From a virus (lineage: Duplodnaviria > Heunggongvirae > Uroviricota > Caudoviricetes): 30,818 nucleotides of DNA. How positions within the stretch are numbered: the first letter of the stretch is position 1; every line of letters starts with the position of its first letter. This document shows, piece by piece, positions 542 through 5,407 of this stretch. The position numbers were made by a program, and so were the translations under genes. The stretch covers positions 1 through 30,818 of IMG/VR virus record IMGVR_UViG_2565956711_000013; one strand, given 5' to 3'. The notes under the pieces are model-generated. The model did not search any database. It was not told where the DNA came from and saw only the letters and a program-made list of their open reading frames with translations.

Positions 542-1579
542 TTAACGCTTATCCGCCACCAGTTTGAGCGCGTGTTCCAGCACATTAATGTCTGCACCCG
601 CTTTATGGGCGTTTTCACTTAAATAACGCCGCCACTGCCGCGCGCCAGGAATACCCTGGAACAAGCCCAACATATGCCGGGTAATATGACCGAGATACGT
701 CCCCTGGCTGAGTTCACGCTCAATGTACGGATACATGGCGCGCACTACCGCCACCGGATCGGCATCGATATCCGAGGAACCAAAGATCTCCCGGTCTACC
801 GCCGCCAGAATACCCGGATTCTGATACGCCTCGCGCCCGACCATCACGCCATCCATATGTTGCAGGTGTGCTTTGGCCTCTTCCAGCGACTTGATACCAC
901 CGTTAATCGACATTGTCAGATGCGGAAAGTCACGCTTCAGTTGATACACACGCGGATAATCGAGCGGCGGGATCTCACGGTTTTCTTTCGGACTTAACCC
1001 CGAAAGCCAGGCTTTACGTGCATGGATGATGAACATCTCACACTCGCCTTTGCCGGAAACGGTGTTGATGAAATCGCAGAGAAATTCATAGCTGTCCTGG
1101 TCGTCGATGCCAATACGCGTTTTCACCGTCACCGGAATCGACACCACATCGCGCATCGCTTTCACGCAGTCGGCAACCAGCTGCGCATTACCCATCAGAC
1201 ACGCACCAAACATGCCGTTCTGCACCCGGTCAGACGGGCAGCCGACATTCAGGTTGATCTCATCATATCCACGCGCTTCTGCCAGCTTCGCACACTGCGC
1301 CAGCGCCGCCGGATCGCTACCGCCGAGTTGCAACGCTACCGGATGTTCTTCTTCACTATACGCCAGGTAATCACCTTTACCGTGAATAATCGCCCCTGTA
1401 GTTACCATTTCAGTATACAGCAACGTATTGCGGGAAAGCAGACGCAAGAAATAGCGGCAATGTCTGTCCGTCCAGTCGAGCATAGGAGCAATGCTAAACC
1501 GAGAACTCCAGTAAGCGCCAGTTTTTTCAGGCATCACGCTGGTTTGATTAGTTTTCTGTGTTTCAGGATTATCGTGCAT
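542..1579 (-). CDS. dusA: tRNA-dihydrouridine synthase A (host gene; its 5' end abuts the prophage integrase)
   Basis: 345-aa ORF with Dus-family TIM-barrel features as I recall them ([17 protein letters not shown] motif); the nearer internal Met (MPEKTG) may be the true start. Confidence 0.9.
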
Positions 1580-1612
1580 TTTTGAACATTTCAGGCTATT
1601 TTTCTCGCGTTA

Positions 1613-1647
1613 GGTTCCCGCACAGGTTCCCACGTTTTATGGGAACC
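1613..1647 (+). promoter_or_regulatory. Cluster of 7-bp repeats in the integrase leader (two direct, one inverted); possible Int arm site or operator
   Basis: ggttccc at 1613-1619 and 1625-1631, and its reverse complement gggaacc at 1641-1647 (9-nt loop), just upstream of the int RBS (gagg 1657-1660) and ATG 1668. Confidence 0.35.
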
Positions 1648-1667
1648 CGAAATAACGAGGTCGTGTA

Positions 1668-2765
1668 ATGGCGTACTATAACATAGAGAAACGACTAAAA
1701 TCCGATGGCACACCACGCTATCGCTGTAATGTGATTATCAAAGAAAAAGGTGTTATCACTTACAGGGAAAGCAAAACATTCCCTAAACATGCTCATGCCA
1801 AAACATGGGGCACACAGAAAGTGATGGAATTAGATCTATATGGCATTCCATCATCAAATGCAGTTGACGGACTTACAGTCCGTGACTTACTACACAAATA
1901 TTTAAATGACCCAAATGCCGGAGGTAAAGCAGGCCGTACTAAAAGATATGTGCTGGAACTGCTTATGGATAGTGACATCTCCGCGATCAAACTATCTGAA
2001 CTGACAGAAAATGACGTAATTGAACATTGCAGGCTAAGAAACAACGCTGGCGCAGGTCCAGCAACAGTCAGCCACGATGTTAGTTATCTTGGCAGTGTTC
2101 TGGATGCGGCCAAACCTGTATACGGAATTAATTACACATCAAACCCGGCGAAAAGTGCTCGCCCATATCTACTTAAACTTGGTTTGATTGGTAAATCAAA
2201 CCGTCGTAATCGTAGACCAGCATCTGATGAACTGGACATGCTCATTGAAGGCCTTCAACAACGATCTACTCATAAATGCTCAAAAATTCCGTTCGTTGAT
2301 ATCCTCAAATTTTCTGTGTGGTCCTGTATGCGAATCGGAGAAGTATGCCGGTTACGATGGGAAGATCTCGACCAGGAACAAAAATCTATACTCGTAAGAG
2401 ACAGGAAAGATCCACGCAAAAAGGAAGGCAACCACATGAAAGTAGCCTTGCTTGGGGAAGCCTGGGATATCGTCCAACGACAGCCCAAAAAATCGGAATT
2501 CATTTTTCCATATAACAGCACTTCTGTTACTGCAGGATTTCAGAGGGTAAGAAGCAAATTAGGTATTAAAGATCTGCGATACCATGATTTGCGTAGAGAA
2601 GGGGCAAGTCGCTTATTTGAGGCTGGTTTTAGTATTGAGGAAGTCGCTCAGGTTACAGGGCATCGTTCATTAAACGTGCTATGGCAGGTATATACCGAAC
2701 TGTATCCGAAATCTTTACATAATCGTTTTGAAGAGCTCCAAAGGAGCAGAAATAAGACCTCTTGA
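1668..2765 (+). CDS. int: Tyrosine-type site-specific integrase, dusA-associated
   Basis: 365-aa ORF; C-terminal catalytic region with RYHDLRR and GHRS...Y consistent with a tyrosine recombinase; divergent from and immediately next to the 5' end of dusA. Confidence 0.85.
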   Translation: MAYYNIEKRLKSDGTPRYRCNVIIKEKGVITYRESKTFPKHAHAKTWGTQKVMELDLYGIPSSNAVDGLTVRDLLHKYLNDPNAGGKAGRTKRYVLELLMDSDISAIKLSELTENDVIEHCRLRNNAGAGPATVSHDVSYLGSVLDAAKPVYGINYTSNPAKSARPYLLKLGLIGKSNRRNRRPASDELDMLIEGLQQRSTHKCSKIPFVDILKFSVWSCMRIGEVCRLRWEDLDQEQKSILVRDRKDPRKKEGNHMKVALLGEAWDIVQRQPKKSEFIFPYNSTSVTAGFQRVRSKLGIKDLRYHDLRREGASRLFEAGFSIEEVAQVTGHRSLNVLWQVYTELYPKSLHNRFEELQRSRNKTS

Positions 2766-2813
2766 CACTGTTTATCCATACAGTTAAAAATAATACTGTA
2801 TACAAACACAGTA
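2762..2813 (+). promoter_or_regulatory. Promoter with two LexA (SOS) boxes upstream of the DinI-like gene
   Basis: -35 TTGACA at 2762-2767; two CTGT-N8-ACAG motifs at 2768-2783 and 2796-2811, the second (TACTGTATACAAACACAGTA, 2794-2813) close to the LexA consensus; RBS gaggg 2816-2820. Confidence 0.65.
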
Positions 2814-2826
2814 TAGAGGGACTTTT

Positions 2827-3075
2827 ATGCGTATTGAGATCTGCATAGCCAAAGAAAAAATGACTAAAATGCCAAACGGTGCTGTGGATGCGTTAAAGGA
2901 AGAATTAACCCGACGCATCAGTAAACGTTATGACGATGTAGAGGTGATCGTAAAAGCCACCAGCAACGATGGGCTTTCTGTTACACGCACCGCAGATAAA
3001 GATTCTGCAAAAACTTTTGTTCAGGAGACTCTGAAAGATACCTGGGAATCTGCTGACGAGTGGTTTGTTCACTAA
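2827..3075 (+). CDS. DinI-like SOS-inducible protein, 82 aa
   Basis: Small acidic protein ([11 protein letters not shown]...[10 protein letters not shown]) resembling the DinI family; preceded by SOS boxes and followed by a terminator. Confidence 0.8.
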
Positions 3076-3180: not shown

Positions 3181-3449
3181 ATATAATCCCGACTGGTCCA
3201 GTTTCCAGACAACCAGGGTGTCTCCTGCCGATAGTGTCCTGAGCAGTTTTTTAAGCCCCGGCCTTTCGGACTTTGTACCGCTTATCTTGTCTTCAAAAAT
3301 CAGCTAGCATCCTGCGCAGTTCAGTGCATTACGTTGCAAATCGGTGTTCTGGTCATTTGTTAATACGCGAACATAGCCAATCCCCCCTCATCTGACAAAA
3401 ACGATAGTGACACTATTGGCTCGTCATTTCTTAATTTTAACGCTAATTA

Positions 3450-3809
3450 CTAAGCTGGAACTGGTGGCCAACTAAATCCAGGAATAATAGCTTCTTCCGC
3501 TGGAATAGATTTAATCTCACGTTTATAGGCCATCCATTTACTCAGACTTTCTTTGTCGCGTTCACTGATATCGCCCAACATCAATTCTGTCCTCCAGTCA
3601 GCAGTAATCATGTCTGCAGAGGCAAGCAGCTCGGCACGTGTTCGCTCAACTGAAGTGACCAGTTCATCGTGAGTTGGTGGAGGGTTTACTATCGCCAGCG
3701 CTTCGGTTTCAGAAATAGCAATTAGCTCTGGCTTGATAAAATCATCCTCACTTCCGTCCTCTGCATATGCATAAACGTTATTGTTCTCATCTTTAAAGTA
3801 CTTCATCAT
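3450..3809 (-). CDS. Tail fiber assembly protein
   Basis: 119-aa ORF directly downstream of the tail fiber gene with a 4-bp overlap; sequence resembles tail fiber assembly chaperones. Confidence 0.75.
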
Positions 3810-4819
3810 TTTAATTCAATCCACTCGATTACATTTCCAAAACTTAACTCAACCATGTAATTGGCACCAGGAGGAACAATAGCACAGGGATATACCCAAG
3901 AAGAAACACCGGCGTAATTTGGAGTATTTCCACCTGCGGCCATAACTCCATTAACTTTTATTTGCACTTCTCCTGATGCCGGAAGATTTACTTTCAAAGA
4001 GATAACCCATGGTTGTTTCGACGTATTTGTGTACGTGATTCCAGGATACTTATCTGTGACGATCTGATACGTTTGATCTATACCGATTAACTGAGACGCT
4101 GTTGCTAACGCGACAACACTGTCACTCTGTGCATGTCGCATATATGGTTTTGTTGCATCATTTCTACTAAAACCAATGACACTGGCTCCATCACCAGTGA
4201 CCATATCATCCAACTCTAGGTATTGGATAACATCATGAATACTAGACTTACCGATGATATCTCGTCCTACCTTCGTAAAATCGGTAAGGTCTGCACTATT
4301 TTCATTGTTGAAATATGGTAGTTTATTAGTTGTTGCGATCAAATTCGCAAGAGCACTCAAAGTGTCATTCGAGTCCTGCTTTTCAGCTAAAGCAGTGCTT
4401 AATTCCTCTTGTGTAGTCAACAAAATTACAGTGTCTGTATCTTGATGCCTGAAATACGGTTTATTTATAACACCTTTACTAAAACCAATGACATTGACTC
4501 CATCACCAATAACAGCATTGGATATTCCAAGGTTTTCGAGAGCTGTTTTCACCGTGCCATCCGATTTGATATCGCCAAACGGATTCTTGCGGCTTAACAG
4601 CAGCGCACGAAGCGCGGTAAGCAGCTGGTCGTGCCGCGCCTTCTCCAGACTGGCACCGGAGGCCTCCACCACGCTGCAAAGTTCTTCCTGCAACATGTCA
4701 AAGTAGTCATCATCCAGATCGGTGGCAGGCGTGCCGGTCTGGGGGTTACCACGGGTAAAACCGTTCTTACCCGCGCCGAACTTATCCTTCTGCGCGGTTT
4801 TCGTGTCTATACGATGCAT
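3806..4819 (-). CDS. Tail fiber protein
   Basis: 337 aa; N-terminal region resembles the conserved N-terminus of P2/Mu-type tail fibers; AT-richer C-terminal part with an internal 312-bp duplication. Confidence 0.75.
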
Positions 4820-4822
4820 GAA

Positions 4823-5407
4823 TTACTCCGGATATTTAAAAATTACGTAGGTATGCGACGGGCAGAGTTTGTTAAGCACACACTCGACAACGGTGTCGCC
4901 CCAGATACGCAGTGCGGAATCACAGGGGTCGCCACATGTCATCCAGGTGGTGTTGGTGGCAGCAGGCATGTTGACCTGCCAGTAATACCGCCATTCAGGC
5001 GCGTTCACAGCATCAGTACAGGCCGATGAGCAGGTGAAGGTGCTTTTGTCGTATCGCGTGATGGTGGCATCTGGTCTGCCCAGGGCAGCAAGCTGGGCAA
5101 GATAAAAATCCTCGTTGATGCCACCCGCCAGGTTAACCTTCGCATCCAGCCGTTGCTGACGCTGGCGAAGGGTCTGTGTCCCTGTAGGAATACATTCATC
5201 CGGCAGGCCGCACAGACGCTCCCAGCGGTTTATCAGTTCGGTGGTGGTGCGCGGATCCAGCTCCCGCATCAGGGCATCCGCACGCTGATGAACACGGGTT
5301 AATGACTGTGCTGCACCGGCAATCGCCGGATCGCTGGCTGACCACGCCGGACCGGGGGGCAACAGTGCCGACAACAGACGGATGTAATCATCATTTGTCA
5401 CGTCCAT
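4823..5407 (-). CDS. Tail/baseplate protein, Mu gp48-like
   Basis: 194 aa; sits between the baseplate J-like gene and the tail fiber, as in Mu-like tail modules. Confidence 0.6.

What the first reader, a model, noticed from the sequence alone, without database searches (positions are those of the whole stretch)
4166..4509. In-frame 312-bp tandem duplication inside the tail fiber gene
Two near-identical DNA segments (actaaaaccaatgacaYtgRctccatcacca at 4166-4197 and 4478-4509) lie 312 bp apart and encode repeated GDG-x-VIGFS...KPY-x-RH modules. The region is AT-richer than the fiber N-terminus. Repeat expansion and domain swapping in the receptor-binding part are a common route to host-range change.
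Basis: seen in the sequence. Interest (0 to 1): 0.35.

Follow-up and report, generated by a model that had tools for sequence, protein, structure and literature searches.

The report
Repeated shaft module in prophage tail fibre
A tail-fibre gene of an SfV-like E. coli prophage carries two old, diverged copies of a roughly 45-residue shaft module 104 codons apart, and recombination between them has produced natural shortened fibres, which is an ordinary example of how phage tail fibres are built and reshuffled.

Summary
On the minus strand, window 3806-4819 encodes an intact 337-aa tail fibre. Two 31-nt segments (4166-4196 and 4478-4508) are 29/31 identical, lie exactly 312 nt (104 codons) apart, and encode GDGxxVIGFS...KPYxRH.

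It is not a 312-bp tandem duplication. Only about 49 aa per period ("A", aa 96-144 and 200-248) is repeated. The spacer ("B", a P1-S-like KLPYF module) has no second copy in this gene.

The duplication is old. Each copy is closer to its orthologue in a 64%-identical relative than to its sister copy. The near-identical 31-nt patch is best explained by gene conversion.

Copy number does vary:
- SfV and e14 fibres have no A module.
- Two independent samples carry an otherwise about 99% identical gene with an exact 312-bp in-frame deletion whose junction lies inside the patch.
- More distant fibres have 1-4 A modules in many A/B orders.

Each A copy sits just 3' of a relic half-site of a Din-invertase crossover site (pix-like and cix-like). 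Homology to SfV stops at the first of these sites.

Verdict: a modular, mosaic fibre shaft. It is a new member of a known kind and of modest interest.

The parts
3806..4819 (-). Intact tail fibre ORF, 337 aa. Architecture: N-terminal anchor, J1, A, B, J2, A', C-terminal knob.
   Evidence: ORF list and translation. Full-length match to phrog_18834 and N-terminal matches to tail-fibre PHROGs. Identical to P0001, which stands for 44 member sequences on 153 contigs. RefSeq mis-annotates it as a truncated stfP pseudogene.
4526..4819 (-). Constant N-terminal baseplate-attachment part (aa 1-98), StfP/SfV orf21 type, GC 0.55-0.60.
   Evidence: 95-99% DNA identity in about 1850 E. coli genomes and in SfV-like phages. 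The homology ends at window 4527. tblastn to SfV orf21. Composition.
4517..4542 (-). J1: relic pix-like crossover site, CTCTCGAAAACC-TT-GGAATATCCAAT, encoding ALENLGISN. The outer half and the central TT are kept; the inner half has diverged.
   Evidence: The same outer half plus TT forms the stfP-side arm of the inverted repeat that bounds the 1.8-kb invertible P region next to pinE in K-12 e14. There is a single copy in the window. It coincides with the end of homology to SfV/e14.
4388..4534 (-). A module, copy 1 (aa 96-144): [49 protein letters not shown]
   Evidence: Local HMM domain hit, E = 2e-33. Alignments A1 and A3.
4211..4387 (-). B module (aa 145-203): a KLPYF-type shaft module homologous to the end of the constant part of the phage P1 S fibre. 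It is not duplicated in this gene.
   Evidence: tblastn of aa 140-208 to P1 S, 50% identity, E = 3e-10. P1 annotation and sequence. PHROG tail-fibre hits over aa 138-246. No similarity at offset 312.
4205..4230 (-). J2: relic cix-like site, TTATCCAATACC-TA-GAGTTGGATGAT, encoding (V)IQYLELDD. The outer half is 12/12 identical to the outer half of the 26-nt cix-type sequence that spans the annotated Sc/Sv boundary of P1 gene S.
   Evidence: P1 reads TTATCCAATACC-TT-GGTTTAAGAGAA across the annotated Sc/Sv junction. This half-site occurs once in the window.
4076..4222 (-). A module, copy 2 (A', aa 200-248): [49 protein letters not shown]
   Evidence: Local HMM domain hit, E = 1e-33. Orthologous to copy 2 of L003/L004.
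4478..4508 (-). 31-nt near-identical core in copy 1 (probable gene-conversion patch). It contains the 17-nt stretch 4477-4493 that is exactly shared with copy 2.
   Evidence: The two sites that differ from copy 2 (4497 and 4494) are polymorphic among alleles that are >=99% identical, and they switch to the copy-2 base.
4166..4196 (-). 31-nt near-identical core in copy 2. The 17-nt exact identity is at 4165-4181. The junction of the natural 312-bp deletion lies here.
3809..4075 (-). C-terminal knob (aa 249-337): a confidently modelled beta jelly-roll, presumed to be the receptor-binding tip.
   Evidence: AF2 pLDDT 86-92 over aa 250-337. Foldseek matches to C1q/TNF-like trimers and a lactococcal phage RBP head. 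Foldseek matches to phage tail-fibre tips, e.g. Achromobacter phage Motura, 94 columns, rmsd 1.2 A.
3450..3809 (-). Tail fibre assembly chaperone gene (119 aa), which travels with the distal fibre cassette.
   Evidence: Pfam Caudo_TAP, E = 5.7e-10. It is present downstream of the cassette in L002, L004, L005 and L008.
3187..3381 (-). Remnant of a Din-type serine invertase gene (pseudogene).
   Evidence: RefSeq annotation of the identical EC09 locus reads 'recombinase family protein; internal stop; incomplete'. The gene is intact in CP55_Sichuan and in L004.

Best explanation
The two near-identical segments are the best-conserved cores of two copies (A, A') of a roughly 45-residue structural module of the fibre shaft. 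The module has the consensus D-x5-G-F-x7-P-Y-[FM]-R-[HF]-x4-D/S-x-V-x2-L-A-T. The copies are separated by an unrelated KLPYF-type module (B), so the architecture is N-anchor, J1, A, B, J2, A', receptor-binding knob. The repeat comes from an old duplication or shuffling of [B-A]-type units; relatives still carry B-A-B-A'. The whole distal cassette (A-B-A'-knob plus its chaperone gene) was joined to an SfV/e14-type constant region at the core of a pix-type invertase crossover site. Within the window's lineage, a patch of about 31 nt has been homogenised between the copies by gene conversion. That patch now serves as a substrate for homologous or microhomology recombination. The result is removal of exactly one 312-nt period, which keeps the frame and leaves one intact hybrid A module, giving a fibre shorter by 104 residues per chain. 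What is shown here: the anatomy, the orthology pattern, the deletion alleles, the polymorphism at the two sites that distinguish the copies, the relic half-sites, and the variable A/B architectures. What is inferred: that A is a trimeric shaft element, that conversion and deletion are RecA-type or slippage events, that the invertase site mediated the original joining, and that fibre length or module content affects adsorption.
For: 1. Extent of the repeat. Similarity at offset 312 is confined to about 90-147 nt. The A-module HMM hits aa 96-144 and 200-248.
2. Age. Identities are A1(win)-A1(L003) 57% aa / 69% nt and A2-A2 65% / 71%, against 41% / 58% for the window's paralogues.
3. Conversion. 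In the 31-nt core the window's paralogues are 29/31 identical, against 19-21/31 in every other pairing. In the other 116 nt the paralogues are 56/116 and the orthologues 81-83/116. Fisher p = 0.02 and 3e-6. Only 8 sites are polymorphic in the distal 780 nt among three alleles that are >=99% identical. Two of these are exactly the two core sites that distinguish the copies, and both change to the other copy's base.
4. Deletion. L002 is about 99.4% identical to the window across the aligned flanks and lacks exactly 312 nt, with the junction inside the shared 17-mer TGTCATTGGTTTTAGTA. A second sample, L011, has a single-copy allele with a different junction haplotype and a different flank haplotype.
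5. Modularity. The A profile finds 148 proteins at E <= 1e-3 among 1.84 billion representatives. The carriers are tail fibres with other N- and C-terminal domains (PF12571, PF21882).
6. Junctions. Homology to SfV and e14 ends at 4527, at the pix core. J2 matches the P1 half-site 12/12.
7. Mobility. The same cassette sits on three different N-terminal and baseplate backgrounds.
Against: No reliable structure was obtained for A. The AF2 monomer gives pLDDT of roughly 35-55 over both copies. The only solved relative is a weak sequence hit, 8jov_1, E = 0.014. Both deletion alleles come from metagenome or SRA assemblies, not from finished genomes. All 5 complete E. coli genomes with the close allele (>=99% identity) keep both copies. 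The conversion signal rests on a short tract and on one outgroup lineage (L003 and L004 are identical in the A modules). Slow evolution of the core in the window's lineage is an alternative explanation. Nothing here shows that the single-copy fibre is functional or that it changes host range.
Confidence: 0.75

Rival explanations
1. One reading: a recent in-frame tandem duplication of a whole 312-bp unit, i.e. a repeat expansion in the receptor-binding part.
For: The spacing is exactly 312 nt and in frame, with a 31-nt core at 94% identity. Relatives P0009 and P0010 do carry a full B-A-B-A' tandem with a period of about 100 aa.
Against: In this gene only about 49 of the 104 residues per period are similar. 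What follows copy 2 is the knob, not a second B. The paralogues are more diverged than the orthologues, so the duplication predates the split from a 64%-identical lineage. The repeat lies in the shaft, upstream of the tip domain.
Confidence: 0.08
2. The two repeats, or the junctions in front of them, are working recombination sites of the neighbouring Din-type invertase, so the region is an active site-specific switch of fibre structure.
For: Each A copy is preceded by a half-site that matches pix or cix. J1's outer half is identical to the e14 pix arm, and J2's outer half matches P1 12/12. An invertase gene lies downstream and is intact in some relatives.
Against: In the window the invertase is a pseudogene. 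The inner half-sites have diverged (5/12 matches by eye). The two sites are in direct, not inverted, orientation, and no inverted partner exists. The observed deletion junctions lie inside the A core, about 40-50 nt 3' of the J sites, not at them.
Confidence: 0.05
3. The similarity of the cores reflects only strong purifying selection on a structurally essential motif. There is no gene conversion, and the single-copy alleles are assembly artefacts.
For: The GF...PY.R motif is conserved in very distant fibres. The deletion alleles come only from metagenome or SRA assemblies.
Against: The identity includes synonymous positions (ATT GGT TTT in both copies, against ATC GGA TTC in the orthologue). 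The two differing sites flip to the other copy's base among near-identical alleles. The shared exact stretch is only 17 nt. From general knowledge, not tested here, that is shorter than the k-mers assemblers usually use. Two samples give two different junction haplotypes.
Confidence: 0.1

Closest known systems
Phage P1 tail fibre gene S (constant part Sc with the 222-bp tandem elements b1/b2, and a cix site at the Sc/Sv boundary, inverted by Cin)
   Same: The B module (aa 140-208) is about 50% identical to the end of P1 Sc. The outer half of the 26-nt cix-type sequence TTATCCAATACC-TT-GGTTTAAGAGAA, which spans the annotated Sc/Sv boundary, is retained 12/12 at J2. The P1 record itself annotates in-frame tandem repeats (b1 and b2, 222 bp each) inside its fibre gene.
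   Different: Here the site is a relic in direct orientation with no inverted partner, and the invertase is a pseudogene. The repeated unit is a different module (A), and the copies are separated by B rather than lying head to tail.
E. coli K-12 e14 StfP/StfE invertible P region (Pin) and the phage SfV orf21 fibre
   Same: The N-terminal 98 residues and the upstream baseplate genes are the same, at 96-98% DNA identity. The homology breakpoint is at the pix core that bounds the e14 invertible segment.
   Different: In e14 and SfV the constant part is joined directly to a gp53-like knob, with no A or B modules. The window carries a rare distal cassette, found in 7 of 5426 complete E. coli genomes.
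Mosaic tail fibres built from shuffled sequence motifs. This is recalled from the literature of the early 1990s on P2 gene H, Mu S, P1 S and p15B Min (Haggard-Ljungquist et al. 1992; Sandmeier et al. 1992, 1994).
   Same: Short conserved modules are reused in different orders and numbers between unrelated anchor and tip domains. Breakpoints fall at conserved junction motifs that coincide with invertase crossover sites.
   Different: No Pfam, NCBIfam or named PHROG model covers the A module. As far as these libraries show, it is an unnamed module. Natural alleles differing by exactly one period are documented here.
PDB 8jov chain 1, 'Putative tail fiber protein'
   Same: Its residues 229-258 (ADGVSVTGFVNGNFYEPYFRKSSDNTVRRL) match the A profile (E = 0.014). 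This suggests that a solved example of the module exists.
   Different: The match is weak and covers a single copy. The fold of that segment could not be inspected with the tools at hand.

Membership tests
Myovirus (SfV/e14/Mu-type) tail fibre gene | N-terminal domain homologous to known fibre proteins that attach to the baseplate | tested here: met
   aa 1-111 are 90% identical to SfV orf21. phrog_1396, phrog_2617 and phrog_6683 tail-fibre hits. 95-99% DNA identity to stfP in E. coli genomes.
Myovirus (SfV/e14/Mu-type) tail fibre gene | Gene position: after the baseplate genes (Mu gp47/gp48-like) and before a tail fibre assembly chaperone gene | tested here: met
   Baseplate_J, E = 1e-52. Phage_Mu_Gp48, E = 1e-26. 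Caudo_TAP, E = 6e-10. Annotation of the identical locus.
Myovirus (SfV/e14/Mu-type) tail fibre gene | Distal receptor-binding tip domain | tested here: inconclusive
   aa 250-337 are modelled with confidence as a jelly-roll similar to phage fibre tips and C1q/TNF trimers. Binding was not tested.
Recent tandem duplication of a 312-bp unit | The whole unit is present twice, head to tail | tested here: not met
   Identity at offset 312 is 60-73% only over gene nt 301-390, 47% over nt 391-420, and at background elsewhere. B has no second copy.
Recent tandem duplication of a 312-bp unit | The copies are closer to each other than to orthologous copies in relatives | tested here: not met
   Paralogues are 58% nt identical, orthologues 69-71%. 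The only exception is the 31-nt core.
Din-invertase (Gin/Cin/Pin/Min) invertible tail-fibre segment | Intact serine invertase gene next to the segment | tested here: not met
   Pseudogene with an internal stop at window 3187-3381. The gene is intact in relatives L004 and L005.
Din-invertase (Gin/Cin/Pin/Min) invertible tail-fibre segment | A pair of 26-bp crossover sites in inverted orientation flanking the variable fibre part | tested here: not met
   There are only two relic half-sites, both on the same strand. No inverted partner was found.
Din-invertase (Gin/Cin/Pin/Min) invertible tail-fibre segment | Crossover site located at the constant/variable boundary inside the fibre ORF | tested here: met
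   J1 has the outer half and the TT core of the e14 pix site, and it lies at the homology breakpoint.
Pfam PF03406 Phage_fiber_2 (phage tail fibre repeat) and other curated fibre repeats | A significant match of the repeated segment to the family model | tested here: not met
   No Pfam family hits the fibre at E <= 1 and no NCBIfam family at E <= 0.01. PF03406 hits other regions of two distant A-bearing fibres, P0122 and P0164.
Unnamed 'A' shaft module (profile A3 built here) | A match to the profile over at least 25 of its 49 positions, including the G-F and P-Y-x-R motifs | tested here: met
   Both window copies score E ~ 1e-33 against the two-copy seed model that was built from these same copies, so that match is by construction. 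Independent support: the A3 profile finds 148 proteins in the 1.84-billion-protein library, and across all 261 fetched proteins long matches occur 1-4 times per protein.

The most novel reading that the evidence does not exclude
The conversion-homogenised 31-nt patch, together with the direct-repeat layout J1-A-B-J2-A', could act as a built-in length switch. Recurrent and possibly reversible loss or gain of one 104-residue shaft period would yield mixed populations of long and short fibres adapted to different surface-layer thicknesses. The tandem layout itself would have been created by invertase-mediated exchange between crossover sites at non-equivalent positions.
Probability: 0.1. Interest if true: 0.55.

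Novelty: new member of a known kind. Interest (0 to 1): 0.27.

Why it matters
This is a clean, small-scale illustration of how tail fibres evolve. Three processes are visible in one 1-kb gene:
- old module duplication;
- cassette exchange at a relic invertase crossover site;
- ongoing gene conversion and unequal recombination that change shaft length without breaking the frame or the module.

Practical value:
- The A module has no model in Pfam or NCBIfam, and a profile for it would improve fibre annotation.
- RefSeq currently labels this intact gene a truncated pseudogene.
- The natural 2-copy and 1-copy alleles are a ready-made pair for testing whether shaft length matters for adsorption.

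None of this overturns current understanding.

Tried and rejected
- **Curated families.** Pfam and NCBIfam scans of the fibre gave no family. The repeat is therefore not a known curated repeat such as Phage_fiber_2.
- **Solved structures.** The sequence search with the whole protein gave only marginal hits: Mu S, E = 0.04, over the N-terminal part, and 8jov, E = 0.28. The A profile improved 8jov only to E = 0.014.
- **Structure prediction.** The AF2 monomer model is unusable for the shaft, with pLDDT of roughly 35-55 over both A copies. No fold could be assigned to A. Foldseek matches are meaningful only for the C-terminal knob.
- **Second crossover site.** Searches for an inverted partner site found none, so an active invertible segment was rejected.
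- **Literature.** A search for '8JOV' found nothing. General searches on cix and mosaic fibres, and on a recalled origin of 8jov, returned nothing that I used.
- **Expansion alleles.** Alleles with three or more A-B periods were looked for among close relatives and none was seen.
- **Invertase remnant.** A frame-1 translation of the region was uninformative. I relied on the RefSeq annotation instead.

Full report
**Context**

The window is an SfV-like prophage of E. coli lying beside dusA. The region 3400-5000 is 100% identical to strain EC09, where integrase, DinI, an invertase remnant, a tail fibre assembly gene, 'stfP', ymfQ and Mu-like baseplate genes are annotated. The structural module is 97.6% identical to phage SfV. 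The finding lies in the ORF 3806-4819 on the minus strand, which encodes 337 aa. The flanking genes are Mu gp48-like and Baseplate_J upstream and a Caudo_TAP chaperone downstream. The ORF matches phrog_18834 over its full length and several tail-fibre PHROGs over parts of it. RefSeq annotates only the first ~100 codons, as a truncated pseudogene, although the ORF is intact.

**Checking the observation**

The 31-mer occurs at 4166-4196 and, with 2 mismatches, at 4478-4508. It occurs nowhere else, and none of 100 shuffles produced a match. The offset is 312 nt, or 104 codons.

A scan of the gene against itself picks out offset 312 clearly: 47 of 60 matches, against at most 32 for any other offset. 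The similarity is limited to gene nt ~300-420, and the remainder of the period is at background identity. At the protein level, aa 96-144 and aa 200-248 align at 41% identity. The Smith-Waterman score is 109, against 21.5 +/- 4 for shuffles.

The distal part of the gene is AT-richer than the N-terminal part, with GC of 0.35-0.42 against 0.55-0.60.

What the sequence shows is two copies of a roughly 49-aa module (A and A') separated by an unrelated 59-68-aa module (B). It is not a duplicated 312-bp unit.

**Anatomy**

- aa 1-98 are the StfP/SfV-orf21 constant part. DNA homology to about 1850 E. coli genomes and to SfV-like phages stops at window 4527.
- B (aa ~145-203) is the KLPYF module found at the end of the constant part of the P1 S fibre.
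- aa 250-337 form a confidently modelled jelly-roll (pLDDT 86-92). It resembles phage fibre tips and C1q/TNF-like trimers.
- The shaft modules are modelled poorly in a monomer, as expected for a trimeric fibre.

**Junctions**

Each A copy is immediately preceded by a relic of a Din-invertase crossover site.

J1 (4517-4542) reads CTCTCGAAAACC-TT-GGAATATCCAAT. In K-12 e14, the same outer half and TT core form the stfP-side arm of the inverted repeat that bounds the 1.8-kb invertible P region next to pinE. The homology breakpoint at 4527 falls at this core.

J2 (4205-4230) reads TTATCCAATACC-TA-GAGTTGGATGAT. Its outer half is 12/12 identical to the corresponding half of the 26-nt cix-type sequence that spans the annotated Sc/Sv boundary of P1 gene S.

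Three facts argue against a working switch here. Both sites are on the same strand. No inverted partner exists. The invertase is a pseudogene, although it is intact in relatives. The simplest reading is that the distal cassette was joined to the SfV-type constant part at the pix core. This is an inference.

**Age of the repeat and gene conversion**

A lineage that is 64% identical (P0009, L003, L004, P0012 and others) has both copies. Copy 1 is closest to copy 1 (57% aa, 69% nt) and copy 2 to copy 2 (65%, 71%). Paralogues are 41-57% aa and 55-58% nt identical. The duplication is therefore older than the split between the two lineages.

The 31-nt core behaves the opposite way. It is 29/31 identical between the window's paralogues, but 19-21/31 in all other pairings. 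The remaining 116 nt are 56/116 between paralogues and 81-83/116 between orthologues (Fisher tests). The identity includes synonymous positions.

Among three alleles that are at least 99% identical (window, CP55_Sichuan, L008), only 8 sites vary in the distal 780 nt. Two of them are exactly the two core positions that distinguish the copies, and both change to the other copy's base. I read this as short-tract gene conversion between A and A'. The probability is moderate to high, but it rests on one outgroup lineage.

**Copy-number variation**

- SfV and e14 fibres have neither A nor B.
- All five complete E. coli genomes with the close (>=99% identical) allele keep both copies, and the cassette occurs in only 7 of 5426 genomes.
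- The metagenome scaffold L002 carries the same prophage region, about 99.4% identical across the flanks, with exactly 312 nt missing. The junction lies within the 17-mer TGTCATTGGTTTTAGTA that the two copies share. The product is a 233-aa protein with a single hybrid A module.
- A second sample (L011) has a 233-aa allele with a different junction haplotype (GCC AGT instead of GTC AAT) and different flank variants. This suggests an independent event.
- Because the 2-copy state is shared with the diverged lineage, the single-copy alleles are derived deletions.
- Other close relatives show further rearrangements: loss of A' (P0024, P0026), a shortened B (P0018, P0023, P0025), and a full B-A-B-A' tandem (P0009, P0010).

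**Wider distribution**

A profile of A finds 148 proteins at E <= 1e-3 among 1.84 billion representatives. The spacing is either back to back (40-59 aa) or interrupted (about 70-210 aa), and there are many A/B orders. The carriers are tail fibres with other anchors and tips, such as PF12571 N-termini and gp53-like C-termini. No Pfam, NCBIfam or named PHROG model covers A. The only solved relative is a weak hit to a 'putative tail fiber protein', 8jov.

**Comparison with what is known**

Mosaic fibres assembled from shuffled motifs, in-frame repeats inside fibre genes (the P1 record annotates b1 and b2), and breakpoints at invertase crossover sites are long established.

The present case fits that pattern. 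It fails the tests for a recent whole-unit tandem duplication and for an active invertible segment. What it adds is an unnamed recurrent shaft module, evidence for intragenic conversion, and natural alleles that differ by exactly one period.

**Verdict**

This is a new member of a known kind, of modest interest (0.27). The most novel reading still open is a recurrent length switch driven by the homogenised patch, possibly built by invertase-mediated unequal exchange. I put its probability at about 0.1.

Noticed in passing
window 3806-4819 (-); L001 7124-7420; L005 2712-3044: RefSeq/PGAP annotates this intact 337-aa ORF as a truncated 'stfP' or 'gp53-like' pseudogene in EC09 and CP55_Sichuan. 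About 700 bp of coding sequence are left unannotated, probably because the naming models cover only the N-terminal part.
   Followed up: partly
window 3187-3381 (-): The Din-type serine invertase downstream of the chaperone gene is a pseudogene with an internal stop. It is intact in CP55_Sichuan (L005 4150-4695) and in L004 (4145-4711). In both of those loci only one fibre-tip/chaperone set is annotated between the fibre gene and the invertase, so these may be 'orphan' invertases; I did not search those loci for crossover sites.
   Followed up: partly
window 4517-4542 (-); L010 2671-2691 / 4489-4509: The breakpoint of homology to SfV, e14 and about 1850 E. coli genomes (window 4527) coincides with the core of a pix-type crossover site. 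In K-12 e14 the same sequence forms one arm of the inverted repeat bounding the invertible P region.
   Followed up: yes
L008/L009 1501-2562; L003 4001-5197; L004 2418-3713: The same distal cassette (A-B-A'-knob plus chaperone) is attached to at least three unrelated N-terminal domains and baseplate contexts: StfP type, a Phage_Wedge1 neighbourhood, and an E1_FCCH/P22_AR_N neighbourhood. In L008 the junction lies further upstream, at ...L|[13 protein letters not shown].
   Followed up: partly
L002 5295-8702: In the scaffold with the 312-bp deletion allele, the fibre locus is followed by a 126-aa resolvase/invertase ORF, a GIY-YIG (LEM-3-like) gene, a C5 DNA methylase and an EcoRII-like endonuclease. 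The window instead has the DinI/integrase/dusA end. The cargo at this end of the prophage is variable.
   Followed up: no
window 542-3075: The prophage end comprises dusA (542-1579, -), a tyrosine integrase (1668-2765, +) and a DinI-like gene (2827-3075, +), so integration is next to dusA. A 36-aa 'capsid protein' fragment is annotated between DinI and the invertase remnant in EC09.
   Followed up: no
L007 459-1328: One SRA-derived allele (P0011, 289 aa) has a frameshifted C-terminus (...[20 protein letters not shown]...). This is either a real knock-out of the tip domain or a sequencing error in a 1.8-kb contig.
   Followed up: no
L006 1-424 (P1 record M81956): The P1 S gene record annotates two 222-bp tandem repeated elements (b1, b2) just upstream of the B-module homologue. 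This is another in-frame tandem repeat in a fibre constant part. In that record the feature labelled cixR has the same coordinates as b2, which looks like an annotation slip.
   Followed up: no
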